Source: a virus. From it: DNA of 61,255 nt. Under the pieces are notes generated by a model. That model saw only the letters and a program-made list of their open reading frames with translations. It was not told the DNA's origin and made no database searches. The translations under genes and the position numbers were made by a program. The stretch covers positions 1 through 61,255 of the IMG/VR virus record IMGVR_UViG_3300045988_081680. One strand, given 5' to 3'. This document shows positions 1 to 60,690 of the stretch, in pieces. Each line of letters begins with the position of its first letter. The first letter of the stretch is position 1.

Positions 1-55
1 TTTTAAAAGACGGTTCTGAAAGCCCGCCATTGTTTACGGACATTTGCATTGATTT
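1..55. repeat. 55-bp terminal overlap identical to 61201..61255 (circular or circularly permuted genome, probably an assembly overlap)
   Basis: First 55 nt (TTTTAAAAGACGGTTCTGAAAGCC...GCATTGATTT) equal the last 55 nt. The helicase ORF stays in frame across the junction. Confidence 0.9.
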
Positions 56-1232
56 AACCACAGTGGAATGTTTCAATCGCTTCATTGCAGAGGGTTATCT
101 TGCGCCGTTAATTCCTCGTTCCACTAATTACAAACTCGATATTGATGGTGTCCATATGCGTGGTGGAGAGTTTATCGAAAAAGAACTGCAATATGCAGTA
201 GATAAACATGAAATTACCGTCCAGGCGATTAAAGAGACACTCGAAGAGGGCGAGGACAGACGAAGCTGGCTTGTGTTTTGTGCGGGGATTGAACACGCTA
301 AAAACGCCGCTGACATTTTAAATGACATGGGCGTGCCTGCCGTTGCAGTGCATAGCAAAATGAGCAACAGCGAGCGCGACGAAGCTATCGCGGGTTTCAA
401 AAGCGGTAAATATCGAGCCATTACGAACAACGGCGTTTTAACCACAGGTTTTGACCATCCACCTATCGACTTAATCTTGTGTTTACGTCCAACGGCTTCT
501 CCTGTATTATGGGTGCAAATGTTAGGGCGAGGCACAAGGCCATATCCTGGAAAAGAAAACTGCTTAGTTTTGGACTTTGCAGATAATACCCGTCGCTTGG
601 GTGCAATTAACGACCCTGTCGTTCCTCGTAAAAAAGGTTCTAAATCTGGACCGCCACCTGTAAAAGAATGTCCTAAATGTAGAACATGGCAACACGCTTC
701 TGTTCGCTTTTGTACAGGTGTGGATAAGGACGGTATGCAATGCGACCATGAGTTTAAATTTGAGACTAAGCTGAAACAAGGTGCGTCCACCAAAGAGCTT
801 ATCAAAGGCGATATGCCTGTTGTGGAAGTGTTTAAAATAGACCATATTGCATACTCAACCCATCGTAAGGACGGACGACCGCCGATGATGAAAGTGTCTT
901 ATTATTGTGGTTATAAATGCTTCTCGGAATATGTGTGCATTGAGCATATCAACTATGCAGGCAAAAAAGCGCGCGATTGGTGGAGAGCAAGAACAGATAT
1001 TCCTGTTCCGGAGAAAACCGAACAGGCTTTGGAAATGACTAACCTTTTGAAAGTTCCGACTCATTTGCGAGTTTGGACTAACAAAAAGTATCCTGAGATT
1101 TTAGCAACCTGTTTTGATGGTACGGCTTTCGGTGTTGACGAAGATGATGGCTTCCGCCCAAACACTGAGAACTATGACGTTAAAACAACATCTCCTAACG
1201 AACCGTTAATTATTGATGATATTCCGTTTTAA
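1..1232 (+). CDS. SF2 DEAD/DEAH-type helicase, C-terminal part (continuation of the ORF starting at 60690)
   Basis: In frame with 60690..61200 after removing the 55-bp overlap (511+1232 nt = 581 codons). Helicase C-domain motifs HSKMSNSERDEAIAGFKSG, VLTTGFDHPPIDLI and QMLGRGTR. Confidence 0.85.
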   Translation, partial: LKDGSESPPLFTDICIDLTTVECFNRFIAEGYLAPLIPRSTNYKLDIDGVHMRGGEFIEKELQYAVDKHEITVQAIKETLEEGEDRRSWLVFCAGIEHAKNAADILNDMGVPAVAVHSKMSNSERDEAIAGFKSGKYRAITNNGVLTTGFDHPPIDLILCLRPTASPVLWVQMLGRGTRPYPGKENCLVLDFADNTRRLGAINDPVVPRKKGSKSGPPPVKECPKCRTWQHASVRFCTGVDKDGMQCDHEFKFETKLKQGASTKELIKGDMPVVEVFKIDHIAYSTHRKDGRPPMMKVSYYCGYKCFSEYVCIEHINYAGKKARDWWRARTDIPVPEKTEQALEMTNLLKVPTHLRVWTNKKYPEILATCFDGTAFGVDEDDGFRPNTENYDVKTTSPNEPLIIDDIPF

Positions 1233-1241
1233 GGAGTAGTT

Positions 1242-1916
1242 ATGTTTGTTTCTATTGATATGCAAAATTTGGAATTTTTGCATAAGCATTATAAAACATC
1301 TGTTTTATTTAACCTTGCCCATGTGGAAGTTCCAAAGTCCTTTGTTAAAATATTGGATACTGTTGCAGCGGTGCGAGGTTTAACGGAACTGGAAAAGAAA
1401 ATGATGGTTCGCAAATACGCACCGGACAGGTTACACGAAGACCATGAAGAAGTCCTTTGTGGTTATATTGATGCTATGCCTGTTGTTGATGTGGACGAAA
1501 GCGAACTTAAATTGCAGGCAAGTGTGATTCGTCCTACTGACAACCATGCTTACAAATACATTAAAGGCGCAATAACCAAGCGTAAACAGCCCACCGCGCC
1601 CCCGCCGTTAACGCCACAGGCGCAAAATACAACCGCCCCTACCGTTACCCTTGCCATGCAACAAACGCCCGCTATAACGCAAATAGAGCAAAGCGAGCAG
1701 TATCGCCAAATGACGCTAAAAACCAGAAGTTCTGGAGTGCGCGACGCAATTTGGGAAAAAGCAGACGAAATGTGGGAAGCCGCTGGTAAACCGACAGATT
1801 TAACCACAGTTCTCAAGTTACGCAAAGAGATTATGAACACGCTGGAAGAGGACGGGATTAAGCGTAACAGTGCTTCAAATGAGCTTGGCAAATGGCAGAA
1901 ACAACGTTTACAATAA
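1242..1916 (+). CDS. hypothetical protein; P/T/Q-rich linker plus a C-terminal ~58-aa domain shared with the 2013..2672 and 44987..45355 products
   Basis: ATG preceded by AAGGAG. C-terminus SGVRDAIWEKADEMWEAAGKPTDL...GIKRNSASNELGKWQKQ. Confidence 0.7.
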   Translation: MFVSIDMQNLEFLHKHYKTSVLFNLAHVEVPKSFVKILDTVAAVRGLTELEKKMMVRKYAPDRLHEDHEEVLCGYIDAMPVVDVDESELKLQASVIRPTDNHAYKYIKGAITKRKQPTAPPPLTPQAQNTTAPTVTLAMQQTPAITQIEQSEQYRQMTLKTRSSGVRDAIWEKADEMWEAAGKPTDLTTVLKLRKEIMNTLEEDGIKRNSASNELGKWQKQRLQ

Positions 1917-2012
1917 TTTACAAATAAAATCTGCACATCACTTGTGATTAGGGTTATACTTGCAACACCTAAACAAAACACCTGTTTCATTAACCAACAA
2001 AAAGGAAATATC

Positions 2013-2672
2013 ATGAGCGTTTCAAACGAAATGGAAAAAGCACTGCAAGACCAAGCAGAAGCCGCCAACAAAGAACAAGCCAAAGCAGAAGCTAAGGCTA
2101 AGAAAGAAGCCGAAAAAGCTGCTAAGGAAGCTGAAAAAGCTCAAAAAGCTGCAGAAAAAGCTGCTGCCAAAGAGCAAGCCAAAGCCGAACGCGAAGCCGC
2201 CAAAGCTGCTAAAGCAGAAGAAGCTGCTAAAGCTAAGGAAGCCGCCAAAGCTGCTAAAGAAGCGAACCGTATGCCGATGCAAAATGGTATTCGCCGTCCA
2301 AAACCTGAAACTTTGTGCGGCCAAGCGTGGGCTATCTTTGACGAAGTTTCCGCAGCTAAAGGTTCTCCTGCGGCTATTGGCGAATGCTTGCCGATTGCCA
2401 TTGAACGCGGTTTGAACCCGACTAACGTTCGTGTGGAATATGCCCGCTGGCGTAAATTCTACAACGTAACAGGTCGTATTGAAAACCCTGCCGCTGCCGA
2501 AAAGAAAGCTGCTGCTGAAGCTGCTAAAGCCGAAGCAAAAGCCAAAAAAGAAGCCGAGCGCAAAGCCGCCAAAGAAGCAAAAGAAGCTGAAAAGGCTGCT
2601 AAAAAGCAAGCTGAAGCAGAAGCAAAAGCTGCTGCCAAAGCTGAAGCTGAAAAAGAGCAACCGCAGCAATAA
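2013..2672 (+). CDS. Lys/Ala/Glu-rich (histone-H1-like tails) protein with a central putative DNA-binding domain
   Basis: ATG after AAAGGA. AKKEAEKAAK-type repeats flank NGIRRPKPETLCGQAWAIFDEVSAAKGSPAAIGECLPIAIERGLNPTNVRVEYARWRKF. Confidence 0.7.
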   Translation: MSVSNEMEKALQDQAEAANKEQAKAEAKAKKEAEKAAKEAEKAQKAAEKAAAKEQAKAEREAAKAAKAEEAAKAKEAAKAAKEANRMPMQNGIRRPKPETLCGQAWAIFDEVSAAKGSPAAIGECLPIAIERGLNPTNVRVEYARWRKFYNVTGRIENPAAAEKKAAAEAAKAEAKAKKEAERKAAKEAKEAEKAAKKQAEAEAKAAAKAEAEKEQPQQ

Positions 2673-2686
2673 TCCGGTAAATTAGT

Positions 2687-2725
2687 TTAAGGCGTGTGCA
2701 ACCCTATGAAACCCACGCGCCTTAA
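2687..2725 (+). other. 12-bp-stem hairpin downstream of the 2013..2672 gene (no U-tract)
   Basis: TTAAGGCGTGTG ... CACGCGCCTTAA, with one G-U pair. Confidence 0.3.
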
Positions 2726-2746
2726 TCGTGAATAAAGGTTATAGAA

Positions 2747-3502
2747 ATGATAAACATTCAACCTATTGAGAAGTTTTTCCAGCCACCTCATCGAGCTATT
2801 GCAGTTCATTCTATCTTCTACACAATACAAGGTGAAGGTCCGTTTACAGGTCGTCCTGCCGTATTTGTCCGTTTAGCAGGTTGTAACTTGCAATGTCCAG
2901 GTTGTGATACAGATTACACGTCCAAACGCCACTTTATGTCCGCACAGGAAATTGTTGCTAAGATTTTGGAACTAGCGAATAAGGAAACCCTTGTGGTTAT
3001 TACAGGCGGCGAACCTTTCCGACAATACAACATTCGTTATCTTTTGGAACTGCTTGTTAAAATGGCTATGAATGTTCAGATTGAAACAAACGGCACATTA
3101 TCACCTGTTCCATTTGACAATGGCGTTGAAGAAGATTACAACTATTGCGCGATGGTAACAAACATGAACGTTCCCGGCATTTGCGGCGTGTATATCGTTT
3201 GTTCGCCTAAATCAGGACGTATTAATCCGTTGATTCGCAAATACGCCTGCGCCCTTAAATATGTGATTAAGCACAATGATGTGGATCCAATGGACTACTT
3301 ACCTATCCACAGCTTAGACCATCCTGTTGGCGTAAAAGTCGCACGTCCGTCCCCTGAATTTGAACGAACCATTTACGTTCAACCAATGGACGAACAGGAC
3401 GAAGCTAAGAACAAATTGAATTTACAGGAAGCTATCAATAGCTGTTTAAAAGGCGGTTATACGCTTCAAATCCAAACCCACAAGATTATTAACATGGAGT
3501 AA
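2747..3502 (+). CDS. queE: 7-carboxy-7-deazaguanine synthase (radical SAM)
   Basis: FYTIQGEGPFTGRPAVFVRLAGCNLQCPGCDTDY (CX3CX2C cluster motif); located in the que/dpdA cluster. Confidence 0.9.
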   Translation: MINIQPIEKFFQPPHRAIAVHSIFYTIQGEGPFTGRPAVFVRLAGCNLQCPGCDTDYTSKRHFMSAQEIVAKILELANKETLVVITGGEPFRQYNIRYLLELLVKMAMNVQIETNGTLSPVPFDNGVEEDYNYCAMVTNMNVPGICGVYIVCSPKSGRINPLIRKYACALKYVIKHNDVDPMDYLPIHSLDHPVGVKVARPSPEFERTIYVQPMDEQDEAKNKLNLQEAINSCLKGGYTLQIQTHKIINME

Positions 3503-3507
3503 CCACA

Positions 3508-4278
3508 ATGAGTAAAGCATTAGTGATTCTGTCCGGTGGACAAGATTCCACCACTTGTCTGTTCTGGGCGAAAAAGCACTTTGACGAAGTACACGCCGTA
3601 ACTTTTGATTACGGGCAACGCCATGCTATCGAGCTTGAAGCAGCTAAAAAAGTCTCCGAGATTGCAGATGTTGCATCTCACGAATTTATTAAAATTCCGG
3701 ACTGCCTGAAATCCACAAGCCCGTTGACTTCCGATACAAAATTGGAAAAATACGAATCGTTTGAACAAATGGAAAAAACTGTTGGTACAAAAGTTGAAAC
3801 CACTTTCGTTCCGATGCGTAATATGTTGTTCTTCACAATCGCAATGAACCGCGCAATCTATCTCGCCTGCGATACACTGGTTACAGGCATTTGTGCAACG
3901 GACAATGCAAACTATCCTGATTGTACAGCGCAGTTTTTGGAAGCCTTTAACCATGCCGCCAGCACATCTTTGGGTGTGAATAATTTCCAAGTCGTTGCGC
4001 CGTTATTGTTTAACACTAAATGCGAAACTGTCGAAATGGCGTATGAGATGCCGGATTGCTGGAAAGCGTTGGCATATTCTCACACGTCTTACGATGGCAA
4101 ATATCCGCCGACTGATAATAACCACAGTAATATCCTGCGGGCGCAAGGCTTTTTAGAAGCAGGATTACCTGACCCGTTGGTTGTTCGCGCTGTTATCGAG
4201 GGTTTAATGCCGATGCCGACAACACGAAATTACCGCGAAGAACTGTTTGACGAAACTCAAGCGATTATCGGTATTTAA
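3508..4278 (+). CDS. queC: QueC-like 7-cyano-7-deazaguanine synthase homologue lacking the canonical C-terminal 4-Cys zinc motif
   Basis: N-terminus ALVILSGGQDSTTCLFWA..VHAVTFDYGQRH and GICATDNANYPDCTAQFLEAFNHA. The C-terminus reads AYSHTSYDGKYPPTDNNHSNILRAQGF where QueC normally has CY..C..C..C. Confidence 0.85.
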   Translation: MSKALVILSGGQDSTTCLFWAKKHFDEVHAVTFDYGQRHAIELEAAKKVSEIADVASHEFIKIPDCLKSTSPLTSDTKLEKYESFEQMEKTVGTKVETTFVPMRNMLFFTIAMNRAIYLACDTLVTGICATDNANYPDCTAQFLEAFNHAASTSLGVNNFQVVAPLLFNTKCETVEMAYEMPDCWKALAYSHTSYDGKYPPTDNNHSNILRAQGFLEAGLPDPLVVRAVIEGLMPMPTTRNYREELFDETQAIIGI

Positions 4279-4686
4279 ATGGATATCATTACTCATGCCG
4301 TTGTAGGTGCATATACAGGAAGCTTTTTTGGACACCCTATTGCTGGCGCAATAGCGGGTATAGCCGCCGATTTGCCCATTATGAGGGTAAAGCGTTACCA
4401 AAGCCCACCGCCTGCCTACAACGCAACACACAGCCTAGCGGCGGCTGTTATTGTGGGTATAGTAGGCTATGCCCTTTACGGCAACGCCGCTTTATTTTTA
4501 GCGTATTTGAGCCATCTTTACTTGGATTTATTTACGCATGGCAAAGAGTGGGGAAGTATGCTACTATACCCACACCCTAAAAGGTTTAGTTTTATGCCTG
4601 AATGGGAATTCTTCAACTCATCTTTTTATCTTGGCTTATTTTTAGCCGTTTTATGGAGCGTATTATTATGTCTAATCCTAAAATGA
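4279..4686 (+). CDS. small polytopic membrane protein, YdjM/DUF457-like (putative membrane-bound metal-dependent hydrolase fold)
   Basis: MDIITHAVVGA..., ...NATHSL..., ...LSHLYLDLFTHG motifs and several hydrophobic helices. ATG abuts the queC stop. Confidence 0.6.
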   Translation: MDIITHAVVGAYTGSFFGHPIAGAIAGIAADLPIMRVKRYQSPPPAYNATHSLAAAVIVGIVGYALYGNAALFLAYLSHLYLDLFTHGKEWGSMLLYPHPKRFSFMPEWEFFNSSFYLGLFLAVLWSVLLCLILK

Positions 4687-4949
4687 CAACTCGCGTGTCT
4701 ACATGGTTGCCGATTATCACTCGTTGTCCTTTGGCGGTTTTGCCGGACGTTATTTACATTTATGTAACTTTTGACGGCTTTGAAGAACTGTTCAAAGTGC
4801 GTAAAGAGTTACGCAAGAAGTATTCCATGAAGCGTATGTTTATGGAAGACATTGCTAAGGACGTATTAGACACATATCCTAACGCCATCAAATGTGAAGT
4901 TAAACTTTTAACAGGTCGCCACGTTGCAACGGCAGAAAGAAGCGAATAA
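4668..4949 (+). CDS. mini QueF-like T-fold protein (93 aa)
   Basis: By eye it aligns with B. subtilis QueF: ITRCPLAVLPDVIYIYVTF vs SLCPKTGQPDFATIYISY. This is followed by EELFKVRKEL.. and MFMEDIAKDVL vs DFHEDCMNII. It lacks the N-terminal part and has a degenerate QueF motif. Confidence 0.55.
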   Translation: MSNPKMTTRVSTWLPIITRCPLAVLPDVIYIYVTFDGFEELFKVRKELRKKYSMKRMFMEDIAKDVLDTYPNAIKCEVKLLTGRHVATAERSE

Positions 4950-5458
4950 TGACTAAAACGTCCATCACTCGTTACCACGATATTTGTGCAGGGCATCGTG
5001 TCGTAGGACATGAGGGTAAATGTCGCCATTTGCACGGTCATAACTATCGTATCCATTTCACTTGCGAAGCAGACAAGTTGGACGATTTGGGTCGGGTTAT
5101 TGATTTCTCCGTTGTAAAAGACCGCCTTTGTATGTGGTTAGAAAAGAACTGGGATCACAAGTTCCTCGTGTGGGAAAAAGACCCTTTGGTCTCTACCATG
5201 CACGGTCTTATTAACAACGGGGATTACTCGTTGAAACAAGAACGTGAACAGTTTAACGAATCCCTTGTATGGTTGGATTTCAACCCTACCGCTGAAAACC
5301 TTGCAGAATATCTGTTAAAAGTTGTAGCACCTGCCCAATTAAAAGGGACAGGCGTGACGGTAACTCAAGTTACTATTGAAGAGACACGCAAATGCGCGGC
5401 AACAGTAACCACAGATAAATCTCAGCAATCTCGCGGCTTAATGCCGTTTATGGATTAA
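4949..5458 (+). CDS. queD: 6-carboxy-5,6,7,8-tetrahydropterin synthase
   Basis: CAGHRVVGHEGKCRHLHGHNYRI (PTPS/QueD signature). TAATG overlap with the upstream gene. Confidence 0.9.
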   Translation: MTKTSITRYHDICAGHRVVGHEGKCRHLHGHNYRIHFTCEADKLDDLGRVIDFSVVKDRLCMWLEKNWDHKFLVWEKDPLVSTMHGLINNGDYSLKQEREQFNESLVWLDFNPTAENLAEYLLKVVAPAQLKGTGVTVTQVTIEETRKCAATVTTDKSQQSRGLMPFMD

Positions 5459-5467
5459 GGAACAACT

Positions 5468-6043
5468 ATGTGTGAAAAATGCAAGACAACCCATCGTAAA
5501 GAGGAACAAGTTTTCCGCGAGCTTTTGAAAGTTCTCGGGGAGAACCCTGAACGTGGCGGTCTGATTGAAACGCCTGCCCGCGCCTTAAAAGCATGGGAAT
5601 TTTGGACGCAAGGTTATGAACAAAACCCTGCGGACGTTCTTAAGGTTTTTGAGGACGGGGCGGAAAAATACGACCAAATGGTTATCGTTAAGGATATGCC
5701 GATTTACAGCCATTGTGAACATCACCTTGCGCCGTTCTTCGGCACGGCAACCATTGCTTATATCCCAAACGGTAAAGTTGTCGGTTTATCGAAGCTCAAA
5801 CGTGTGGCTAATATCTTCGCCCGCCGTTTGCAGGTGCAAGAGCGTTTGACACAGCAAATCGCTGACGCTATTGAGGAGCATTTGCAGCCTTTGGGCGTGG
5901 GTGTGCTTATCAAATGCCGTCATATGTGCATGGAAAGTCGCGGTATTGAGACACAAGGTGCTGAAACAATTACTTCCGCTTTGCGTGGTGCAATTCGCGA
6001 CGAACCACAAACACGCGCCGAGTTTTTAAACTTGGCAAACTGA
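5468..6043 (+). CDS. folE: GTP cyclohydrolase I
   Basis: ETPARALKAW..., IYSHCEHHLAPFFGTATIAYIPNGKVVGLSKLKRVANIFARRLQVQERLT. Confidence 0.92.
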   Translation: MCEKCKTTHRKEEQVFRELLKVLGENPERGGLIETPARALKAWEFWTQGYEQNPADVLKVFEDGAEKYDQMVIVKDMPIYSHCEHHLAPFFGTATIAYIPNGKVVGLSKLKRVANIFARRLQVQERLTQQIADAIEEHLQPLGVGVLIKCRHMCMESRGIETQGAETITSALRGAIRDEPQTRAEFLNLAN

Positions 6044-6063
6044 TACTTGCAGATTAAACGGAT

Positions 6064-6090
6064 AAACGGCATAATACATTTATGCCGTTT
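6064..6090 (+). terminator. rho-independent terminator between folE and dpdA
   Basis: AAACGGCATAA-TACAT-TTATGCCGTTT followed by T. Confidence 0.6.
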
Positions 6091-6110
6091 TACAAATTAG
6101 AGGTTTTAGA

Positions 6111-7043
6111 ATGAAATTATACACGGCTGCCGTATATACGAACGAATATGTTCCAGGTATGCACAGCCCTATTCGTTGGGACGTGCTAAACGAACACGAA
6201 CGTAATATCGTATCCAATTTACCGAATATTCTTGAGTCTTACCACTACGTTTGGAAAGACAAATATGTAAAAGGTATGCGCGAGGACGGCGCAAAGATAT
6301 TTCTTGACAGTGGCGCATTCTCGGCGTACACACTAGGGGCAAAAATCCATCTACCAACGTATGTGGATTACATTAAACGCAATATCGACATTCTTCGCGT
6401 TGAGGACGGCGTTTTAATGGCTGCCGTATTGGACGGCATTGGCGACCCTCTCGAAACGTATCGTAACCAATTGTCTATGGAAGCGTTAGGCGTGAAGCCT
6501 ATGCCGTGTTTCCACGCGGGCGAAGACGAACGTTATCTGGAATGGTACATTCAAAACTACGACTACATCAGTTTGGGTGGCATGGTAGGAAGTTCTACTA
6601 AACAGCTTATGTTGTGGTTAGACAGGGTTTGGGATAAATACCTTGTTGATGGTTCAGGACGACCTCGCTTAAAAGTGCATGGCTTCGGTATTACTTCGAT
6701 TCCAATTATGGAACGTTATCCGTGGTGGAGTTGTGACTCGTCCTCTTGGATTCAAGCAGGTTCTTTCGGTTCCATTGTAACGCCAGAATTCGGGCCAATC
6801 GCTATATCAGATAAGTCTCCTCAACGCCACGATGCGGGTATGCACTTGTCCACATTAACGCCTGCTGAACAAGATAAAGTTTTAGAGGCTTTGGAACGTG
6901 CGGGCTTCACTTACGAAAGACTGTCGACAGTTTATCAAAGTCGCATGGCGTACAATCTTTGGGCTTATGGTGTAATTAACGCGATGATGAACGCGGCTAA
7001 CGATTACAACCATTTCAAAGCTCACAATCAGGAGTTATTCTGA
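6111..7043 (+). CDS. dpdA: DpdA-type DNA 7-deazaguanine transglycosylase (TGT paralogue)
   Basis: IFLDSGAFSAY..., ISLGGMVG..., KVHGFGITS..., WWSCDSSSWIQAGSFG; adjacent to folE/queDCE. Confidence 0.85.
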   Translation: MKLYTAAVYTNEYVPGMHSPIRWDVLNEHERNIVSNLPNILESYHYVWKDKYVKGMREDGAKIFLDSGAFSAYTLGAKIHLPTYVDYIKRNIDILRVEDGVLMAAVLDGIGDPLETYRNQLSMEALGVKPMPCFHAGEDERYLEWYIQNYDYISLGGMVGSSTKQLMLWLDRVWDKYLVDGSGRPRLKVHGFGITSIPIMERYPWWSCDSSSWIQAGSFGSIVTPEFGPIAISDKSPQRHDAGMHLSTLTPAEQDKVLEALERAGFTYERLSTVYQSRMAYNLWAYGVINAMMNAANDYNHFKAHNQELF

Positions 7044-7999
7044 TGTTAGATTCATTAAAATTTGTTCAAGGTGCTGTCGCTAAAAAGGACTTTGTTCCTG
7101 AAATGACACACTTTGAAATCAAAAACGGGCGCATTACCGCTTTTAACGGACAACTCGCTTTATCCTGTCCAATACCTCTCGATATCGACTGTAAGCCAAA
7201 AGCAGAAGATATGGTAAAAGCTATCTCAAAATGTCAAGAGACCGTTAGTATCACAATGACGGAAACTAACCGCCTGAGAATCCAGTCCGGCAAGTTTAAA
7301 GCATTTGTCAACTGCTTGGACGGCACATGGTTGGATATTCATCCAGAGGGTGTGGAAGTTCCTATTAACGGCGAGGACGTTGTAAAGGCATTCCACGTCC
7401 TTTTACCTTTTATCGGTAATGATGCTTCTCGTGCGTGGGGCATGGGCGTATTGCTGGACAGTTCTTCCGCTTTTGCCACAAATAACGTTTGCCTTGTCCA
7501 ATACTGGCTCGGTACGCCGTTTCCAAAACGTGTGAATATTCCAAGTGCTGCTGTAAAAGAAATGTTACGCATTAAAGAAGCACCGATGGGAATGATGCTT
7601 CACGACAATAGCATTACTTTTGTTTACAGTGGCGACAGATGGTTAAGAACTCAATTACTTGAGGATAACTGCCCAGATTACGTTGCCTTACTGGATGGAC
7701 AGAAAAGCAATCCTCACTCTTTAAACGAAGATGTATTTGAGGGCTTGGAAACAATCAAACCTTTTGTCGGTAAGTTTGGTAAAATCCATTTTGCAAACGG
7801 CATTATGTCCACTGAATCCGATTTAACCACAGGTGCAACATACGCCATAAGCGACCAAACCTTAAAAGGTATTTACCGCCATGAAATGTTCGCTTTGTTA
7901 AAAGGCGTTGCAAAGCAGATAGACCTTACAACATATCCTAAACCTTGCGCGTTCTTTGGGGACAATTTGCGCGGTTTGATTATTGGAATGAAAGAATGA
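7043..7999 (+). CDS. DnaN-like sliding clamp candidate
   Basis: 318 aa. LKFVQGAVAKKDFVPEMTHFEIKNGRITAFNGQLAL, AFATNNVCLV (cf. ATDGHRLA) and CPDYVALLDG (cf. FPDY). It lies immediately upstream of the polymerase with an ATGA overlap. Confidence 0.6.
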   Translation: MLDSLKFVQGAVAKKDFVPEMTHFEIKNGRITAFNGQLALSCPIPLDIDCKPKAEDMVKAISKCQETVSITMTETNRLRIQSGKFKAFVNCLDGTWLDIHPEGVEVPINGEDVVKAFHVLLPFIGNDASRAWGMGVLLDSSSAFATNNVCLVQYWLGTPFPKRVNIPSAAVKEMLRIKEAPMGMMLHDNSITFVYSGDRWLRTQLLEDNCPDYVALLDGQKSNPHSLNEDVFEGLETIKPFVGKFGKIHFANGIMSTESDLTTGATYAISDQTLKGIYRHEMFALLKGVAKQIDLTTYPKPCAFFGDNLRGLIIGMKE

Positions 8000-10023
8000 G
8001 AAAAGATGCAGTTGGTTTATTTTGGGAGGATATTCCTCATGTTATACGTTCTGAAAAGAAAAAGCAAAAAGTAAAAGCGAAAGTTGAACCGCCAGAACCC
8101 GTGTGGTTATCACCGGACTATTTGCCAAATTTGGAAGAAGCCCAAAATATGCAAGTTCCGTTGATGAACGACATGGAACTGCTTGCTGCTTGTGGTAACA
8201 AAGAACGCTTATTGTTCGACATTGAGACATACCCTAACTACTTCCTCGCCTCTTTCCGTAGCGTGGTTTCCGGTAAACTCGTCTATTTTGAAATGACAAA
8301 GGACAGTAACTTTGAAGCGGGTAAGTTGAAATGGATTCTGGATAATTTTACCACAGTCGGCTTCAATAGCCTGAATTATGACTTGCCTATTACTGCCCTT
8401 GCCGTAAATGGAGCAAATAACGGCTTGCTCAAACAAGCCAGCGACATGATTGTCGCTCAACAAATGCGCCCGTCTGACGTCTTAAAACATTTTGGCGTTA
8501 AAATGCCAGCTTGGGATAATATTGACCTTATCGAAGTTGCACCATCTTTCTCTTCGCTTAAAATTTACGGCGGACGTTTGCACACGCCACGTCTTGAGGA
8601 CTTACCGTTTGAAGTTAACCAAAACTTGTCCCGTGAACAAATGGACATTGTTAAATGGTATAACGTGGAAGCCGACTTAGTAGCGACAGGTTTTCTGCAC
8701 CAAACACTTCAAGAACATTTGAATCTGCGTTACGCAATGTCCAACGAAGAGGGCGTTGACTTGCGTTCAAAATCTGACGCGCAAATTGCCGAAGCGGTTA
8801 TTGCTGCCGAGTATTATCGCGCAACAGGTAGGCGCGCGAAACGTGTCGAAATCCCCATCGGTACGCAATACAAATATGACACGCCTCACTTTATTAAGTT
8901 CCAAACGCCGTTGATGCAAAGGGCTTTGGAAATTATCCAAAACAGTGTTTTTGAAGTTGGTGAAAGCGGTGCAATCGACTTGCCACCATCCATTAAAAAC
9001 TTACTTCTGGAAATTAATACGTCCGTTTATCGTATGGGTATTGGTGGGTTACACTCGACCGAAAAATGCCAAAGTGTAAAAGAGGACGCTGAATACATTC
9101 TTAGGGATAAGGACGTAACGTCTTTCTATCCGTACATTATTCTTAATCAGGGGTTATACCCTGAACATCTTGGTCCAATATTCCTGCAAATTTACCGTGC
9201 CATTGTAAACCGTCGTGTTGATGCAAAAGCTCGCGGAGACAAGGTTGTAGCGGACAGCCTTAAAATCGTAATTAATGGTTCTTACGGTAAATTTGGTTCT
9301 AAATATTCTATTGTTTATTCTCCTAAACTTATTATCCAAACTACACTAACAGGACAGCTATCCTTACTGATGTTAATCGAACGTCTTGAGTTGGCTGGAA
9401 TCCGTGTGGTTAGCGCAAACACTGACGGCATTGTTATCCATTGCAAACGCACAATGCAGGATACAATGGAAGCCATTGTTAAACAGTGGGAACTGGATTG
9501 TGCTTTCCAAACAGAAGAAACTGTTTATTCTGCTATATACTCAAGAGATGTAAATAACTACATCGCGGTTAAACCTGACGGGTCTGTTAAAACTAAAGGC
9601 GCGTTTGCTAATCCGTGGTCTGATACTAAAAACTTGGCTGACCGCCTCAAGAAAAACCCTACAAACATTGTCTGCATTGATGCCGTGTGTTCATATTTAA
9701 CCACAGGTAGGCTCGTGGACGATTACATTTTAAATTGCAAGGATATAACTAAATTCCTGACGGTTCGTAGTGTTACGGGCGGGGCTGTTAAAGTGTATCC
9801 TGACAAAACAGATTATCTAGGTAAATCCATCCGTTGGTATTATGCCAAAAATATGGACGGAGAAATTGTATATGCTAAGTCTGGAAAGAAAGTACCTCGA
9901 ACAGACGGTGCTAAACCGTGCCTAACGTTACCAAGTGAATTTCCAGACGATATTAACCACACTTGGTATATCGAAGAGGCACACAAAATCCTAAAAGAAA
10001 TTGGAGCAGTTCATGAAAATTGA
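7996..10023 (+). CDS. family-B DNA polymerase with 3'-5' exonuclease domain
   Basis: Exo I FDIETYPNYF, Exo II NSLNYDLPI, Exo III YNVEADLV. Pol A DVTSFYPYII, Pol B KIVINGSYGKFG, Pol C SANTDGIVI. Confidence 0.9.
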   Translation: MRKDAVGLFWEDIPHVIRSEKKKQKVKAKVEPPEPVWLSPDYLPNLEEAQNMQVPLMNDMELLAACGNKERLLFDIETYPNYFLASFRSVVSGKLVYFEMTKDSNFEAGKLKWILDNFTTVGFNSLNYDLPITALAVNGANNGLLKQASDMIVAQQMRPSDVLKHFGVKMPAWDNIDLIEVAPSFSSLKIYGGRLHTPRLEDLPFEVNQNLSREQMDIVKWYNVEADLVATGFLHQTLQEHLNLRYAMSNEEGVDLRSKSDAQIAEAVIAAEYYRATGRRAKRVEIPIGTQYKYDTPHFIKFQTPLMQRALEIIQNSVFEVGESGAIDLPPSIKNLLLEINTSVYRMGIGGLHSTEKCQSVKEDAEYILRDKDVTSFYPYIILNQGLYPEHLGPIFLQIYRAIVNRRVDAKARGDKVVADSLKIVINGSYGKFGSKYSIVYSPKLIIQTTLTGQLSLLMLIERLELAGIRVVSANTDGIVIHCKRTMQDTMEAIVKQWELDCAFQTEETVYSAIYSRDVNNYIAVKPDGSVKTKGAFANPWSDTKNLADRLKKNPTNIVCIDAVCSYLTTGRLVDDYILNCKDITKFLTVRSVTGGAVKVYPDKTDYLGKSIRWYYAKNMDGEIVYAKSGKKVPRTDGAKPCLTLPSEFPDDINHTWYIEEAHKILKEIGAVHEN

Positions 10024-11080: not shown

Positions 11081-14000
11081 TTACAAAGTAATTCCGTATT
11101 TTGCAGCAAGTTCTGTTTTTCCAGTAACTTCGCCTGCGGTAATAAAGAATCCTTCGCCAACTTTCATTTCCACACATCCGTTGCCGCTATATGGCGCGCC
11201 GATACGGAGTTTCATACCTGCTGTCCAAGTTACAGTAAATTCCAACAGATACCATTTATCACGTTCAACAGCTAAGGCTGGAGAAGTAACAGTTCCGTTG
11301 ATTTTACCTGAACCACCTTTGATAGTGTAAGGTGTTGTACGTTCATCATAAACCAAGTCCGGACCGTCACCATCAGCAAAAGCTACAACGGCACTGGCGA
11401 CCTTACGATTGCCCATACCTGTGAATTTGACAGGTGCGACCAACTTGACTACATCACCCGCAACAAACGGAAGATTTTCAAAGTCGATGTAAGTACCAAG
11501 ATACTTAGTTTCACGGTCTTTCAGGTTGTTGACTAATACCCTGTGGTCACCGTCTTCTTGAACCATACCGTTAAATTGAGGACCGACGGTATTAGTGTTC
11601 ATAGACGGTTCTACTGTCACCTTAACGCCATCCGCATTTGTAACGGATTTTGCACCGATAGCCACATTGTCGCGAATATTAAACGTAACAAGTTTTTTAG
11701 GTGTAGCAGGTGCAGGGCTGGCGGGCGCGGCTGGCTCGTTACTGGCGGGCGGCTGCGCTGGTGCAGGTGTTGGGCTGGCTGGCTGCCCGCTTGCCGCTGG
11801 CGCGGCTGCTGGCGGGCTTGCTGGCGTTGCTTGCTCACCACTGGCGGCGGGTGCGGCTGCCTCGCCTTTTAACGCCAAATATGCGTTTCCAACTTCAGCA
11901 GCTGTCAATTCCTTGTTGTAGTACATGACGTTGTAAATATCAGCACTAACCTGACCGTTACCGTTCCAAATGGAACCCAAAGTAACAAGTTCGATGTCGG
12001 ACAGATGAGTCATAGTGATAACGTACTTGGTATTCAGCTTCAACTCTTGTCCTGTATAAGGAACGCCGTTAACATACATACGGTCTTGACGTTTCATTGT
12101 GAACAGGTCATCTCGTCCACCACGTTGAATACCAAATCCACCACCAACGCCTACTAAGTTTTCGCCGTTTTTATTAGCAAAGCCAACAAACGAAGTTCCT
12201 GTTGGACGACCGCCAAGACTCTTAATGGTAATTTCCATCATGAGACTGGCTTTTGCAGATTTTGTAACAGGCATCAAACCGTAAACACCAGCAGAAGCTT
12301 CTTCATCACGAAGTCGTGCGCGGATGTATTTGTTAGCAACATCAACCAAGCCCTCATATCCGCGTGGCGGGTAAGAACCTGCTTTTGTAACTTTGGTAGT
12401 CTTACCTTTGATTGGAATTTCCTCGCTAGTAGCATTCGCCCAATCGAGTTCATCAATCGGTGTGGGTACAGTTCCGTTTAAGGTAGGCTTAACGTAACTA
12501 TCTTCAAAGGTGACAACTTTAACCACAGTGGATTCCATTGTGAACTTCTCTGTCGCCGTGCCTGCAACGGTAATCGCTTCGCCGTTGTAAGTGTTACCGG
12601 ACACAAATGCGCGGTTCAGCGGCATTTTGCTGTTCAGCAGGAATTGAGCCATGAACTCGTCTTTTGGACGGTCACAAACAAACTTGTTGTTCATCAAGTT
12701 AAGGTGAATGCTTCCAGGTTCATCGAGTTCCAACGCGACAACACGGCGCACACTGTTTGTCGTGTAATGCAGTTCATTATCTTCGACAATAACAAGTGGA
12801 TGGCGAGCGCATTGGATGTAAAGGAATTGCGACCAAGAAACGTTCTTGCCTGCCTTGATTACATTGTGGTGAATATGGATTGGCATATCATTTGGAATAA
12901 CTGCCGAACCGTTTTTCTCTTGCAAGAAAATAGGCGTATCCATACCCTCTTCGTATGTGATGGTATTATGGGCGAACTCGATTTTACCAAGACCAATGTG
13001 GGCATTACCGTCCGCAGAAGCAAAGAAAATGTGGTGGATACGTTTACCTGTTACCGTGTTGTTTTTAATAACGACATTGGTCTTAACGTGTTTCGCGCCC
13101 TCATTATTGCGCCACTCGAACACGCGGTGACCTTTACGACCAGTCCAATCTATACCCTCAACAGTGTTACCCTCGATAAGGATATCCACGTCAGGTTGGT
13201 TCTTCCATGTTTGGTTTGGCTGCGGTTTGTTTTCCACACGCACACCAGTCCACTGATAGTAGTCGAAGTTACGGTATGGGTTGTCAGGGCTGGCAAACGT
13301 TGTCCATGGTTTGTGGGTTACGTCCCTTTCAAGAATGAAGTTCGGGTTATTGATCAGCTTGTTGCGGAGGATGCGGATGTTACGTTGAGGATAACCTCGA
13401 CCCTCGATAGCCACACCAAAGAAGCGGTCGCCATCAGATGTGTTGTCGCTAATCTCAGCGTCGCAAGCATCATGAGTATCTAAGCCTTTACGGTAGTTAG
13501 AACGGGTTGTGTTACCTGTCCAAGTAACCGAAGCGTTGACTGAACCGCTGAAAGCAGTGATGCCGTAACCCGTGCCACCGCTGGCTTCGTGACCGTTAAA
13601 TTCGCACAAACAACCGCGAACAATGTTACCTTTTTGATTTTGAACGAGAACGCCTGCGCTGCGGTTGTGGTGAGTATGACAATCAATAACCACATTGTCT
13701 TCGCCGCGATATTTAAGGTCGTCCAGTTTAACTTTACCAGTGTAGAAGTCAAAGTTTTCTTGCAAAGTTTCAGGGCTAATTGCACCGACAAAGATACCGG
13801 CACGATTACCGCCGCAAGCTTCAACACGTTCGACACGGCAACGTTTAGTGTCCATAAGAGCAAGGCATGAAATTTGACCGAAGTAAACATCGTCTGGGCG
13901 GTAGAATTCGCCCTCGTATTTGATTGTAAAGTCCTCAAAGACTTTATCCTCGACTTTATGGGCGAGAATACCGCAAGACAAACGGCTGTCCGTTTTGTTG

Positions 14001-59790: not shown

Positions 59791-60690
59791 ATGCAATTAG
59801 CAAGAAAGACAATGCACAAAATAGATAGCATGGTCGCACAGGATCAGGGAAGTGCCTATCGAGTGTGGTTAGGACAGGTATTACCACATATTGGCGATGC
59901 GTATCGTGCAGGAAACGATGGACATCGTGGACACATGGGTGCGTCCTTAATCGGTAAAGAATGCGCCCGTTCAATTTGGTACGACTTTTTCTGGGCAACA
60001 AAATCCGCGTTTGATGGACGTATGGTACGTCTGTTTAATCGTGGGCATTTGGAAGAGGGACGTTTTATCGCCCTGCTTCTGATGATTGGTTGCCAAGTTT
60101 GGCAACAAGACGAAAACGGTAATCAATTTCGTATTTCCGACGTAGAGGGTCATTTTGGCGGTTCTGGTGACGGCGTTGCATTAGGCGTTCCGGACATTGA
60201 CCCTAATACCTATTGTCTATTAGAATTTAAAACACACTCAGAAAAATCTTTTAGAGAGTTGCAAGCCAAAGGCGTTCAAGAAGCAAAATGGGAACATTAT
60301 GTTCAAATGAACGTCTATATGCGTAAGATGGGTCTTGCTGTTGCCCTTTACATGGCGGTAAATAAGAACACAGACGAAATCCATGCTGAAATTGTAACCT
60401 TAAATCCAGAGGTTGCAGACCAATATATCGACCGCGCCCATAAGATTGTGTGGTTATCAGAGCCACCAAAGAAATTAAGCGAGTCTCCTGGATTTTATAA
60501 ATGCCGTTTTTGTAACCACAGACCTGTCTGCCACCTTAACGCAAAACCTGATAAAAACTGTCGAACTTGCACTTATTCTAGACCAGATTCAGATGGTAAG
60601 TGGGTTTGCGTCATTGATTTTGTTGAAGCCGAACTTTCTAAAGAATTGCAATTAACAGGTTGCGACCGTTACAAGCAAAGGAAAATGTGA
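59791..60690 (+). CDS. PD-(D/E)XK exonuclease, Cas4/RecB-like with C-terminal Cys cluster
   Basis: GHFGGSGDGV...LLEFKTHS...YVQMNVY and CRFCNHRPVC...C..C. Confidence 0.75.
   Translation: MQLARKTMHKIDSMVAQDQGSAYRVWLGQVLPHIGDAYRAGNDGHRGHMGASLIGKECARSIWYDFFWATKSAFDGRMVRLFNRGHLEEGRFIALLLMIGCQVWQQDENGNQFRISDVEGHFGGSGDGVALGVPDIDPNTYCLLEFKTHSEKSFRELQAKGVQEAKWEHYVQMNVYMRKMGLAVALYMAVNKNTDEIHAEIVTLNPEVADQYIDRAHKIVWLSEPPKKLSESPGFYKCRFCNHRPVCHLNAKPDKNCRTCTYSRPDSDGKWVCVIDFVEAELSKELQLTGCDRYKQRKM

What the first reader, a model, noticed from the sequence alone, without database searches (positions are those of the whole stretch)
2747..7043. Complete phage 7-deazaguanine DNA-modification cluster with two extra, non-standard genes
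The gene order is queE - queC-like - DUF457-like membrane protein - mini QueF-like - queD - folE - terminator hairpin (6064..6090) - dpdA. A clamp-like gene and the family-B polymerase follow directly. FolE, QueD, QueE and QueC make preQ0 from GTP, and DpdA inserts it into DNA; this is the established Dpd/phage pathway. The phage therefore very probably replaces some G by a 7-deazaguanine as an anti-restriction measure. The cluster differs from a textbook one in three ways: an atypical QueC, a 93-aa QueF-like protein and a membrane protein embedded in the operon. The final base cannot be predicted from the sequence. Candidates are preQ0, preQ1, archaeosine-type G+, ADG or something else.
Basis: partly seen in the sequence, partly recalled or inferred. 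Interest (0 to 1): 0.72.

Follow-up and report, generated by a model that had tools for sequence, protein, structure and literature searches.

The report
Phage deazaguanine cluster with membrane-partnered QueF-L
This complete phage genome carries the known gene set for replacing guanine in its DNA with a 7-deazaguanine, plus a two-gene add-on found so far almost only in phage sequence, a tiny QueF-L-like enzyme always paired with a small membrane metal-hydrolase-like protein, that probably converts the inserted base to archaeosine but has never been tested.

Summary
The order is queE, queC, a YdjM/DUF457-like membrane gene, a 93-aa T-fold gene, queD, folE, a conserved hairpin, dpdA, then clamp and PolB.

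The interpretation (a DpdA-type 7-deazaguanine DNA modification) is supported by profile searches and by synteny with CAjan, Iggy, 9g-like phages and Sphingomonas phage MMDA13.

- **QueC.** It has lost its four zinc-binding cysteines. This subtype is common in phages. Phage Iggy has it, and its DNA carries dPreQ0.
- **Mini protein.** It matches no Pfam, NCBIfam or PHROG model. Its predicted fold and its family profile both point first to archaeal QueF-L (archaeosine synthase). The catalytic Cys, Asp and Glu are kept and the QueF NADPH motif is absent. MMDA13 and a UniProt entry already carry this annotation in silico.
- **The pairing.** I found no report of this. In 39 of 40 loci the mini gene directly follows, and usually overlaps, the YdjM-like gene. 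One contig has them fused. The pair occurs with three QueC types and never with Gat-QueC. It was absent next to archaeal QueF-L and from cellular chromosomes.

The most likely product is dG+ (about 45-50%). dADG or a new derivative remains possible. dPreQ1 is unlikely. The role of the membrane partner is unknown.

The parts
2747..3502 (+). [quoted passage not shown]
   Evidence: Pfam Radical_SAM 1.4e-11. NCBIfam QueE models score 1e-24, below their equivalog cutoffs. phrog_2076 'QueE-like' 2.4e-53. The CNLQCPGC motif is in the sequence.
3508..4278 (+). queC (preQ0 synthase), 256 aa; phage subtype lacking the four Zn-binding cysteines
   Evidence: Pfam QueC 4.6e-50. TIGR00364 165 bits (cutoff 150). 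PDB 2PG3 and 3BL5 are matched only over residues 1-182. Alignment A2 shows TSYDG...NNHSNILRAQGF where canonical QueC has TCYNG...CGKCPACKLRA. It is 57% identical to Iggy QueC, which has the same C-terminal motif.
4279..4686 (+). YdjM/DUF457-like small polytopic membrane protein with a conserved His/Asp/Glu set, 135 aa; obligate partner of the next gene
   Evidence: Pfam PF04307 6.4e-9, above its cutoff. There is a faint Zn_dep_PLPC hit at residues 67-92. M1 D2 H6 D31 H51 H79 D83 H87 W109 E110 are invariant or at least 94% conserved, and E108 at least 90%, across 32 unique phage homologues. Its ATG follows the queC stop directly (TAAATG). The AF2 model is poor (pLDDT 57), so nothing was learned from structure.
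4668..4949 (+). Mini T-fold protein, QueF-L-like (putative dPreQ0 amidinotransferase / archaeosine synthase), 93 aa; catalytic candidates Cys20, Asp27, Glu60
   Evidence: No hit in Pfam, NCBIfam, PHROGs or PADLOC. The AF2 model has pLDDT 80.5 and a bbaabb topology. The top 13 Foldseek PDB hits are all P. calidifontis QueF-L (5K0P, 5JYX; E 2.7e-4, TM 0.61-0.78), while B. subtilis QueF 4F8B scores E 0.03. The family profile's best PDB sequence hit is 5JYX, E 0.0022, with Cys21 and Asp28 aligned to the family Cys and Asp, and 'HEE' aligned to 'MED'. None of 67 members has the NADPH motif.
4949..5458 (+). queD (6-carboxytetrahydropterin synthase), 169 aa
   Evidence: Pfam PTPS 9e-28; phrog_2389 3.3e-54. 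The CRHLHGH motif (CxxxHGH) is in the sequence. Its start overlaps the previous stop (TAATG).
5468..6043 (+). folE (GTP cyclohydrolase I), 191 aa
   Evidence: Pfam 4.6e-71; NF006825 241 bits (cutoff 174).
6064..6090 (+). Conserved RNA hairpin between folE and dpdA (weak intrinsic terminator, attenuator or stabiliser)
   Evidence: 11-bp stem and 5-nt loop; -14 kcal/mol; z -3.19. The stem is conserved and the loop varies in L016-L018. L019 has a hairpin of different sequence. The terminator scan did not call it because the T-tract is short.
6111..7043 (+). dpdA (DNA guanine transglycosylase, the type found in CAjan), 310 aa
   Evidence: phrog_887 1.2e-85. tblastn gives 71% identity to MiCath, 67% to NP1 and PaMx25, and 66% to CAjan, each over 100% of the length. 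CAjan DpdA is genetically required for dPreQ0 in DNA (PMC6884629).
7043..7999 (+). Sliding-clamp-like processivity factor (context, not part of the pathway)
   Evidence: phrog_947 3.4e-66; weak dnaN hit.
7945..10023 (+). Family-B DNA polymerase (context). The true start is probably downstream of the TTG at 7945.
   Evidence: phrog_1252 7.6e-206.

Best explanation
The window is a complete, circularly assembled siphovirus-like genome of about 61.2 kb, with the gene layout of the Queuovirinae. Its replication module holds a tightly packed operon for post-replicative 7-deazaguanine modification of its own DNA.

1. **Making preQ0.** FolE, QueD, QueE and a zinc-cysteine-less phage QueC make preQ0 from GTP.
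2. **Inserting it.** A DpdA of the CAjan type swaps it for guanine in DNA.
3. **Converting it.** A two-gene add-on then acts on the nitrile. The add-on is a 93-aa basic T-fold protein related to archaeal QueF-L, translationally coupled to a 135-aa YdjM/DUF457-like inner-membrane protein.

The most likely chemistry is as follows. Cys20 of the T-fold protein attacks the nitrile of DNA-bound dPreQ0 to form a thioimide. Ammonia resolves the thioimide to the formamidine, giving 2'-deoxyarchaeosine (dG+). The pair would then be the functional counterpart of the glutamine-amidotransferase domain of Gat-QueC, which occupies the same slot in 9g-like phages.

The membrane protein keeps a full set of His, Asp and Glu residues typical of a metal centre. 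By my reading of the topology and of the natural fusion protein, these residues face the cytoplasm. I infer that the membrane protein is an obligate accessory subunit that docks or activates the T-fold enzyme at the membrane, or supplies its nucleophile. Its actual reaction is unknown.

- **Shown here:** gene identities, synteny, fold, conserved residues, the obligate pairing, and the near-restriction to phage sequence.
- **Inferred:** the substrate (DNA-bound dPreQ0), the product (dG+), and any role of the membrane protein.
For: **Pathway genes and DpdA.**

**Synteny with characterised phages.** Three alternative fillings of one slot were found.
- QueC alone: CAjan and Iggy, whose DNA carries dPreQ0 by LC-MS.
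- Gat-QueC: MiCath and R7M here, and 9g in the literature, which carries dG+.
- QueC + YdjM-like + mini T-fold: the window, MMDA13 and about 38 metagenomic loci.
Sources; PMC6884629, PMC10484667, PMC7472734.

**The pair never co-occurs with a GAT domain**. This mirrors the inverse distribution of QueF-L and Gat-QueC in Crenarchaeota (PMC5485725).

**QueF-L likeness.**
- The Foldseek top 13 hits are QueF-L.
- The family profile's top PDB hit is QueF-L, with Cys, Asp and Glu aligned.
- hhalign against archaeal QueF-L gives E 0.0012.
- None of 67 members has the NADPH motif, and the median pI is 9.1.
- BFVD's top hit is annotated 'Archeaosine synthase'.
- MMDA13 gp33 scored 91% for QueF-L in HHpred (PMC7472734).

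**Pairing.**
- 39 of 40 loci have the YdjM-like gene directly upstream, overlapping or abutting it.
- The reverse search finds the same set.
- A single-ORF fusion lies between folE and dpdA.
- The pair occurs with three QueC types and in four gene orders.

**Putative metal ligands are conserved**.

**A partner that supplies NH4+ to QueF-L was explicitly left open by its discoverers** (PMC5485725).
Against: - No member of this phage T-fold family has been assayed.
- Every phage 'QueF/QueF-L' protein tested so far proved to be a preQ1-forming reductase, and Cui et al. found that no phage sequence aligned with QueF-L (PMC6884629, PMC10516641).
- Homology to QueF-L is remote: 17-21% identity, hhalign probability 19%, and no Pfam QueF hit at threshold.
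- The QueF/QueF-L histidine in 'HE' is a methionine here.
- Archaeal QueF-L has no YdjM-like neighbour and works alone with free NH4+ in vitro (PMC5485725). The obligate partner therefore hints at different or additional chemistry.
- One locus (L005) has the T-fold gene without the partner in the 6.4 kb available.
- A membrane location is odd for a DNA-modifying step.
- The metal-site reading of the YdjM-like protein rests on a Pfam hit, on conserved residues and on my recollection of the PLC/P1-nuclease ligand pattern. No reliable structural model was obtained.
Confidence: 0.5

Rival explanations
1. [quoted passage not shown] Water, not ammonia, resolves the Cys thioimide, as in nitrilase or nitrile-hydratase chemistry. 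The metal-hydrolase-like membrane protein assists or is needed for turnover. The pair would then be a phage analogue of bacterial DpdC.
For: - The same conserved Cys, Asp and Glu and the missing NADPH motif fit hydrolysis as well as amidine formation.
- The partner belongs to a family annotated as membrane-bound metal-dependent hydrolases.
- Hutinet et al. raised the possibility that a phage QueF-L might switch between amidohydrolase and amidotransferase activity (PMC6884629).
- dADG occurs in several phages whose enzyme for it is unknown (PMC6884629, PMC8306585).
Against: - The pair replaces Gat-QueC, a dG+ maker, at the same position.
- The closest solved relative is an amidinotransferase.
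- No T-fold enzyme is known to hydrate a nitrile.
Confidence: 0.15
2. The two extra genes do not change the base. The DNA carries dPreQ0, as in Iggy and CAjan. The YdjM-like protein and the T-fold protein would serve another purpose, such as preQ0 handling or salvage at the membrane (compare the YhhQ-like transporter in the same slot in CAjan), or host takeover.
For: - The rest of the cluster equals that of Iggy, which carries strictly dPreQ0.
- CAjan also has a small membrane protein, annotated as a preQ0 transporter, directly after queC.
- P. calidifontis QueF-L binds free preQ0 as a stable thioimide that does not react with NH4+ (PMC5485725). A preQ0-binding or carrier role is therefore conceivable.
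Against: - The catalytic Cys, Asp and Glu and the putative metal ligands are strictly conserved over about 40 diverged loci.
- The pair is mutually exclusive with Gat-QueC.
- Tight translational coupling and a fusion argue for one enzymatic unit inside the pathway.
Confidence: 0.12
3. The mini protein is a true QueF nitrile reductase and the phage DNA carries dPreQ1, as in Dp-1, HVTV-1 and phiSM.
For: - All phage QueF-family proteins tested so far are reductases (PMC6884629, PMC10516641).
- The protein has the T-fold and the conserved Cys, Asp and Glu shared with QueF.
Against: - None of 67 family members has the NADPH motif E(S/L)K(S/A)hK(L/Y)(Y/F/W).
- At 93 aa it is far shorter than B. subtilis QueF (145 residues in PDB chain 4F8B), so there is little room for extra segments.
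- QueF ranks far below QueF-L in the fold search and is absent from the profile search of PDB sequences.
- DpdA is of the preQ0-inserting CAjan type.
Confidence: 0.04

Closest known systems
Sphingomonas phage vB_StuS_MMDA13 gp36-gp30 (MN820898; Marmo et al. 2020, PMC7472734)
   Same: The gene order is identical: queE, queC (no GAT), YdjM-like gp34, QueF-L-like gp33, queD, folE, dpdA, a small ORF, clamp, PolB. Identities are QueC 61%, gp34 49% and gp33 41%. The authors predicted QueF-L (HHpred 91%) and archaeosine in the DNA.
   Different: The host and base composition differ (59% GC against 43-44%). MMDA13 FolE has an N-terminal extension. gp34 was left as 'hypothetical', and its link to gp33 was not noted. 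There is no nucleoside analysis for either phage.
Escherichia phage 9g and other Gat-QueC phages (MiCath, NP1, Alteromonas R7M): dG+ in DNA
   Same: They share the replication-module synteny and the DpdA type, with 67-71% DpdA identity. They are expected to give the same end product if the QueF-L reading is right.
   Different: They have a single 467-aa Gat-QueC fusion in place of QueC + YdjM-like + mini T-fold. They have no membrane component.
Pseudomonas phage Iggy and Escherichia phage CAjan: dPreQ0 in DNA
   Same: [quoted passage not shown] Iggy has the same cysteine-less QueC subtype (57% identity). CAjan DpdA is 66% identical.
   Different: Neither has the YdjM-like and T-fold pair. CAjan has a YhhQ-like membrane protein and two unrelated ORFs in that slot.
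Archaeal QueF-L, archaeosine synthase (Pyrobaculum calidifontis; PDB 5K0P, 5JYX; PMC5485725)
   Same: It is a single T-fold domain of about 100 aa. It is the best structural match and the best sequence-profile match. The thioimide Cys, the general acid/base Asp and a Glu are aligned. Neither has the NADPH motif.
   Different: - Identity is only 17-21%.
- The phage family misses Pfam PF14489, which archaeal QueF-L hits.
- The phage family has Met where QueF-L has His.
- The phage family is basic (median pI 9.1 against 6.2).
- The known QueF-L substrate is tRNA, not DNA.
- Archaeal genes have no YdjM-like neighbour.
Bacterial and phage QueF (NADPH-dependent preQ0 reductase; for example B. subtilis 4F8B)
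   Same: It shares the T-fold, covalent Cys-thioimide chemistry on the preQ0 nitrile, and conserved Asp and Glu.
   Different: The NADPH motif is absent here. The Foldseek E-value is 0.03 against 3e-4 for QueF-L.
YdjM/YbcI family (Pfam PF04307, DUF457), SOS-regulated inner-membrane proteins of unknown function
   Same: The Pfam hit is above the gathering score. The protein is a small polytopic membrane protein with conserved His and Asp residues.
   Different: The phage protein is shorter, matching profile positions 1-145 of 176. It forms its own subfamily, found only next to the mini T-fold gene. No function is known for any member of the family.

Membership tests
Phage DpdA-type 7-deazaguanine DNA modification system (Queuovirinae layout) | A DpdA DNA transglycosylase homologue | tested here: met
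   phrog_887 1.2e-85; 66% identity over the full length to CAjan DpdA.
Phage DpdA-type 7-deazaguanine DNA modification system (Queuovirinae layout) | A complete preQ0 pathway (FolE, QueD, QueE, QueC) | tested here: met
   Pfam, NCBIfam and PHROG hits for all four, with signature motifs present.
Phage DpdA-type 7-deazaguanine DNA modification system (Queuovirinae layout) | Order queE-queC-queD-folE-dpdA inside the replication module, followed by clamp and PolB | tested here: met
   The order is the same in CAjan, MiCath, Iggy, HD01, R7M and MMDA13.
Phage DpdA-type 7-deazaguanine DNA modification system (Queuovirinae layout) | A 7-deazaguanine nucleoside actually present in virion DNA | not testable with these tools
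   This needs LC-MS/MS of virion DNA.
[quoted passage not shown] | PP-loop ATP-pyrophosphatase core with SGGxDS, and a score above the equivalog cutoff | tested here: met
   SGGQDS at residues 9-14. TIGR00364 scores 165 bits against a cutoff of 150. Pfam 4.6e-50.
[quoted passage not shown] | A C-terminal four-cysteine Zn site (C...CxxCxxC) | tested here: not met
   All four Cys are replaced (TSYDG...NNHSNILRA). The same holds in Iggy, HD01, MMDA13 and most related loci. Iggy nevertheless carries dPreQ0 (PMC10484667). Host QueC was not excluded as the source there.
QueF-L (archaeosine synthase, T-fold amidinotransferase) | A single T-fold (bbaabb) domain of about 100 aa that resembles QueF-L more than other T-fold enzymes | tested here: met
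   AF2 pLDDT 80.5. The top 13 Foldseek hits are 5K0P and 5JYX, with TM 0.61-0.78.
QueF-L (archaeosine synthase, T-fold amidinotransferase) | Catalytic Cys (Cys21) and Asp (Asp28) that form the thioimide | tested here: met
   Cys20 and Asp27 are at least 90% conserved in 67 family members. They align to Cys21 and Asp28 of 5JYX.
QueF-L (archaeosine synthase, T-fold amidinotransferase) | Absence of the QueF NADPH-binding motif | tested here: met
   0 of 67 members have it, and 0 of 13 archaeal QueF-L have it.
QueF-L (archaeosine synthase, T-fold amidinotransferase) | Significant sequence membership (Pfam PF14489, or a profile-profile match) | tested here: inconclusive
   - No Pfam hit for the window protein; 3 of 67 members hit at E >= 0.025.
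- Family HMM against PDB: QueF-L is the top hit, E 0.0022.
- hhalign: E 0.0012 but probability 19%.
- Archaeal QueF-L proteins do hit PF14489.
QueF-L (archaeosine synthase, T-fold amidinotransferase) | Ammonia-dependent conversion of nucleic-acid-bound preQ0 to G+ | not testable with these tools
   This needs an enzyme assay or nucleoside analysis.
QueF (NADPH-dependent nitrile reductase) | The NADPH motif E(S/L)K(S/A)hK(L/Y)(Y/F/W) | tested here: not met
   0 of 67 members. The region reads FEELFKVRKELRK.
YdjM/DUF457 (PF04307) | A Pfam score above the gathering threshold, and a small polytopic membrane protein | tested here: met
   36 bits against a cutoff of 29. The precomputed PF04307 annotation is on all 5 close homologues. 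Hydrophobic segments lie at about residues 3-30, 50-84 and 113-135.
YdjM/DUF457 (PF04307) | Metal-dependent hydrolase activity | not testable with these tools
   The only evidence is the conservation of D2, H6, D31, H51, H79, D83, H87, E108 and E110. The structural model was not reliable.

The most novel reading that the evidence does not exclude
The YdjM-like membrane metalloprotein and the mini T-fold protein form a two-subunit, membrane-anchored enzyme whose product is neither dG+ nor any of the eight 7-deazaguanines known in DNA. For example, a nucleophile delivered or generated by the membrane subunit could capture the Cys thioimide, giving an N-substituted amidine. Alternatively, the pair does make dG+, and the membrane subunit is the long-hypothesised physiological ammonia-supplying partner of a QueF-L-type enzyme.
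Probability: 0.15. Interest if true: 0.85.

Novelty: new variant of a known kind. Interest (0 to 1): 0.55.

Why it matters
7-Deazaguanine DNA modifications are a major phage counter-defence against restriction enzymes and Cas9. The chemistry that diversifies preQ0 after insertion is only partly mapped.

Every phage 'QueF/QueF-L' protein tested so far proved to be a reductase, so no true QueF-L-type amidinotransferase has been shown to act on DNA. This family is the best candidate for one.

Its obligate, sometimes fused, membrane partner is a member of the uncharacterised, SOS-linked YdjM/DUF457 family. Working out the pair would do three things:
- assign the modified base for a widespread clade of phages of about 56-64 kb;
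- test whether QueF-L-type enzymes use a partner to obtain their nucleophile;
- give a first functional handle on DUF457.

If the product is simply dG+ and the partner is dispensable, this is just a third, interchangeable route to a known modification.

Tried and rejected
- **Near-identity DNA search against isolate phages.** Only a 486-bp stretch of dpdA matched, at 75% identity to Alteromonas phage R7M. No close isolate exists.
- **Libraries for the mini protein.** Pfam, NCBIfam, PHROGs and PADLOC found nothing. phmmer and a shallow 10-sequence profile against PDB sequences gave only weak dihydroneopterin aldolase hits, E 0.3. Only the 67-sequence profile reached QueF-L.
- **Hypothesis that the YdjM-like gene compensates for the lost zinc site of QueC.** Rejected. 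Iggy and HD01 have the same cysteine-less QueC without the gene. L031 and L034 have a zinc-cysteine QueC with it.
- **Comparison with CAjan's genes between queC and queD.** These are a YhhQ-like gene and ORFs of 189 and 107 aa. tblastn with the window's YdjM-like and mini T-fold proteins did not hit CAjan, and the sequences look unrelated.
- **Structure of the YdjM-like protein.** AF2 gave pLDDT 57. Foldseek and a PDB profile search gave nothing meaningful.
- **GTDB genome scan.** It found two MAG contigs of phage size and one false hit, in a Prevotella PepT gene that shares 'KKFMEDIAKK'.
- **The search for related loci with the broadest alignments.** It failed for lack of a conserved stretch.
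- **Literature.** I found nothing linking YdjM or DUF457 to deazaguanine, and no functional data on the family. The QueF-L structure paper (PMC5167649) is not held. The supplement of Cui et al. is not held either, so I could not check whether MMDA13 gp33 was in their QueF set.

Full report
**What is there.**
The + strand between 2747 and 7043 holds seven tightly packed genes.
- **Standard pathway genes.** queE, queC, queD and folE all pass profile searches, and their signature motifs are visible in the sequence.
- **DpdA.** It has no Pfam hit, which is usual for phage DpdA. It matches phrog_887 at 1.2e-85. It is 66-71% identical over its whole length to the DpdA of CAjan, NP1, PaMx25 and MiCath.
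- **Downstream genes.** A clamp-like processivity factor and a family-B polymerase follow.
- **Hairpin.** The hairpin at 6064-6090 is real (-14 kcal/mol, z = -3.2). It is conserved among close relatives, and a more distant relative has a different hairpin in its place. Its T-tract is weak.
- **Gene junctions.** They are TAAATG (queC to the membrane gene), a 19-nt overlap (membrane gene to T-fold gene) and TAATG (T-fold gene to queD). The unit from queE to folE therefore looks like one translationally coupled operon.

**Genome context.**
The window is a whole phage genome. Its last 55 bases repeat its first 55, and a helicase gene spans the junction. The rest of the early region encodes primase, a MazG-like protein, RNase H, ligase, Sak4, SSB and a Cas4-like exonuclease. 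No isolate phage is close at the DNA level. IMG/VR holds genomes of about 59.7 kb that are 96-98% identical in these proteins.

**The slot between queE and queD.**
Syntenic phages fill this slot in three ways.
- **QueC alone.** CAjan and Iggy, both with dPreQ0 measured in their DNA (PMC6884629, PMC10484667).
- **A 467-aa Gat-QueC fusion.** MiCath and R7M here, and 9g in the literature, which carries dG+.
- **QueC + YdjM-like + mini T-fold.** This is the window's arrangement. Sphingomonas phage vB_StuS_MMDA13 has the identical arrangement. Its authors called gp33 a QueF-L homologue (HHpred 91%) and predicted archaeosine. They left gp34 as hypothetical.

**QueC.**
It is a real QueC by score (TIGR00364 is above its cutoff). 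All four zinc-binding cysteines of canonical QueC are replaced. This is not peculiar to the window.
- The same C-terminal motif occurs in Iggy, Acinetobacter phage HD01 and MMDA13, and the closest QueC matches in the phage database are spread over many host genera.
- Iggy, which lacks the two extra genes, carries strictly dPreQ0.
- I therefore treat this QueC as an ordinary phage preQ0 synthase. One caveat is that Iggy's host also has QueC.

**The mini T-fold protein.**
No curated library recognises it.
- **Family size.** An exhaustive HMMER search of 1.84 billion representative proteins finds only 79 clusters. Pro, Thr, Cys, Pro, Asp, Arg and Glu are almost invariant, at window positions 15, 18, 20, 21, 27, 45 and 60 in 93-aa numbering.
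- **Fold.** AlphaFold gives a confident bbaabb fold (pLDDT 80.5). The 13 best PDB matches are all chains of Pyrobaculum calidifontis QueF-L. They rank ahead of PTPS/QueD, GTP cyclohydrolase I and dihydroneopterin aldolase. Unimodular QueF ranks 23rd.
- **Sequence profile.** The 67-sequence family profile finds the same QueF-L as its best PDB sequence hit (E 0.0022). It aligns the family Cys and Asp to Cys21 and Asp28, the thioimide-forming pair (PMC5485725). hhalign against an archaeal QueF-L alignment gives the same register, with E 0.0012 but only 19% probability.
- **Other properties.** No family member has the QueF NADPH motif, and the family is basic, with a median pI of 9.1.
- **Existing annotation.** BFVD's best match is already named 'Archeaosine synthase'.
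- **Conclusion.** It works like, and is remotely related to, QueF-L. It lies outside the curated QueF/QueF-L family.

**The pairing.**
I collected loci through the T-fold protein and, independently, through the membrane protein. I scored them with profile searches.
- **Frequency.** Of 40 non-identical loci with the T-fold gene, 39 have the YdjM-like gene directly upstream. By profile envelope, the coding regions are between 48 nt of overlap and 0 nt apart.
- **Fusion.** In one contig the two are a single 211-aa ORF lying between folE and dpdA.
- **Reverse search.** Every locus found through the membrane protein has the T-fold gene wherever downstream sequence exists.
- **Independence from context.** The pair occurs in at least four gene orders and with three QueC types, including the canonical zinc-cysteine type (L031, L034). 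It is therefore a module of its own, not an adaptation to the odd QueC.
- **Exclusions.** It never occurs with Gat-QueC. It is absent next to archaeal QueF-L genes. Among 185,579 species genomes it appears only on two phage-sized MAG contigs.
- **The exception.** It is a 6.4-kb high-GC contig, L005.
- **Literature.** I found no paper linking YdjM or DUF457 to 7-deazaguanines.

**The membrane protein.**
Its Pfam YdjM hit is above threshold.
- **Conserved residues.** Across 32 unique phage homologues, M1, D2, H6, D31, H51, H79, D83, H87, E108, W109 and E110 are invariant or nearly so.
- **Possible metal centre.** From memory, not tested here, the pattern (His6, H-x3-D, and about nine ligands) recalls the tri-zinc centre of phospholipase C and P1 nuclease, the Pfam clan to which YdjM belongs. 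A faint Zn_dep_PLPC hit covers the HxxxDxxxH stretch.
- **Topology.** Basic residues in the loops (the positive-inside rule) and the fusion protein, in which the T-fold domain replaces the last transmembrane helix, suggest that this polar cluster faces the cytoplasm. This is inference.
- **Structure.** The model was too poor to use.

**Mechanism.**
1. preQ0 is made from GTP and inserted by DpdA. This is an established pathway, and the homology here is strong.
2. The T-fold enzyme forms a Cys20 thioimide with the nitrile of DNA-bound dPreQ0. This is inferred from QueF-L, which turns over only nucleic-acid-bound preQ0 (PMC5485725).
3. Ammonia resolves the thioimide to dG+. This is inferred from the replacement of Gat-QueC and from the missing NADPH motif.
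4. The membrane protein is required. This is inferred from the pairing and the fusion. It could dock the enzyme or supply the nucleophile, and the QueF-L authors left open a partner that generates NH4+. This last step is speculative.

I put dG+ at roughly 45-50%, dADG at about 15%, unchanged dPreQ0 at about 12%, a new derivative or an ammonia-supplying partner at about 15%, and dPreQ1 at under 5%.

**Verdict.**
- **Already known.** The cluster type is known, and this very variant was drawn in 2020.
- **Not known.** Its chemistry is untested, no phage QueF-L-type enzyme has been validated, and the obligate YdjM-like partner has gone unnoticed.
- **Rating.** It is a new variant of a known kind, of moderate interest.

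Noticed in passing
window 1-55 and 61201-61255; 60690-61255 joined to 1-1232: The last 55 bases repeat the first 55, so the window is a circularly closed assembly of about 61.2 kb. A DEAD/ResIII helicase gene runs across the junction.
   Followed up: yes
L015 162-797 (JGI 3300001213, 902-bp contig); protein P0087: A single 211-aa ORF fuses a YdjM-like N-terminal part, lacking the last TM helix, to the mini QueF-L-like domain. It sits between a folE 3' end and a dpdA 5' end. An internal ATG precedes the T-fold part, but there is no stop codon between the two parts.
   Followed up: partly
L005 (IMGVR_UViG_3300044729_001912), 1-3200: This is the only locus with the mini T-fold gene and no YdjM-like gene. 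It is high-GC. Its order is a distant dpdA-like gene, the T-fold gene, a zinc-cysteine QueC, queD, queE, folE. The contig is only 6.4 kb, so the partner could lie elsewhere.
   Followed up: partly
L071 (IMGVR_UViG_3300029288_000059, 289,811-bp contig), 4001-5449: The YdjM-like and T-fold pair also occurs on a contig of jumbo-phage size, in the order YdjM-like, T-fold, QueC. No queD, queE, folE or dpdA was detected within the 8.3 kb fetched.
   Followed up: no
L004 2849-3772; L003 6791-7678; L010 6737-7633; L040 about 6877-8313: In several related loci FolE is 295-310 aa or longer, with an N-terminal extension. In L004 the extension contains 'FFIDDIIDSGETM', which looks like a phosphoribosyltransferase motif. 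The window's FolE (191 aa) has no such extension.
   Followed up: no
window 1944-2672 (+): A 242-aa protein has long Lys/Ala/Glu-rich repeats (AKAEAKAKKEAEKAAKEAEKA...) on both sides of a conserved core (phrog_18634). A gene annotated in the same way sits just upstream of queE in CAjan ('FtrA domain'), Iggy, HD01 and R7M ('transcriptional activator'). MiCath and L006 also encode a K/A/E-rich protein there.
   Followed up: partly
L013 5001-6062 (Pseudomonas phage Iggy QueC): Iggy QueC has the same cysteine-less C-terminal motif as the window's QueC, plus an extra tail of about 100 aa with no match. The Iggy paper notes the tail but not the loss of the zinc-binding cysteines.
   Followed up: partly
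L029 4861-5616; L037 3352-4050: There is a third QueC C-terminal type, with the zinc-binding cysteines also lost but in a CAjan-like scaffold (TDYNG...WGYGTLDTPSSKLRAEGY). It too is followed by the YdjM-like and T-fold pair.
   Followed up: no
window 7945-7999: The longest PolB ORF starts at a TTG inside the clamp gene. The real start is probably a downstream ATG. It was not resolved.
   Followed up: no
window 11081-14398 (-): A 1105-aa protein in the late (- strand) gene block has Pro/Ala-rich linkers (AAAPAASGEQATPASPPAAAPAASGQPASPTPAPAQPP). The mirrored GC-rich repeats create spurious ORFs on the opposite strand. It was not compared with any database.
   Followed up: no
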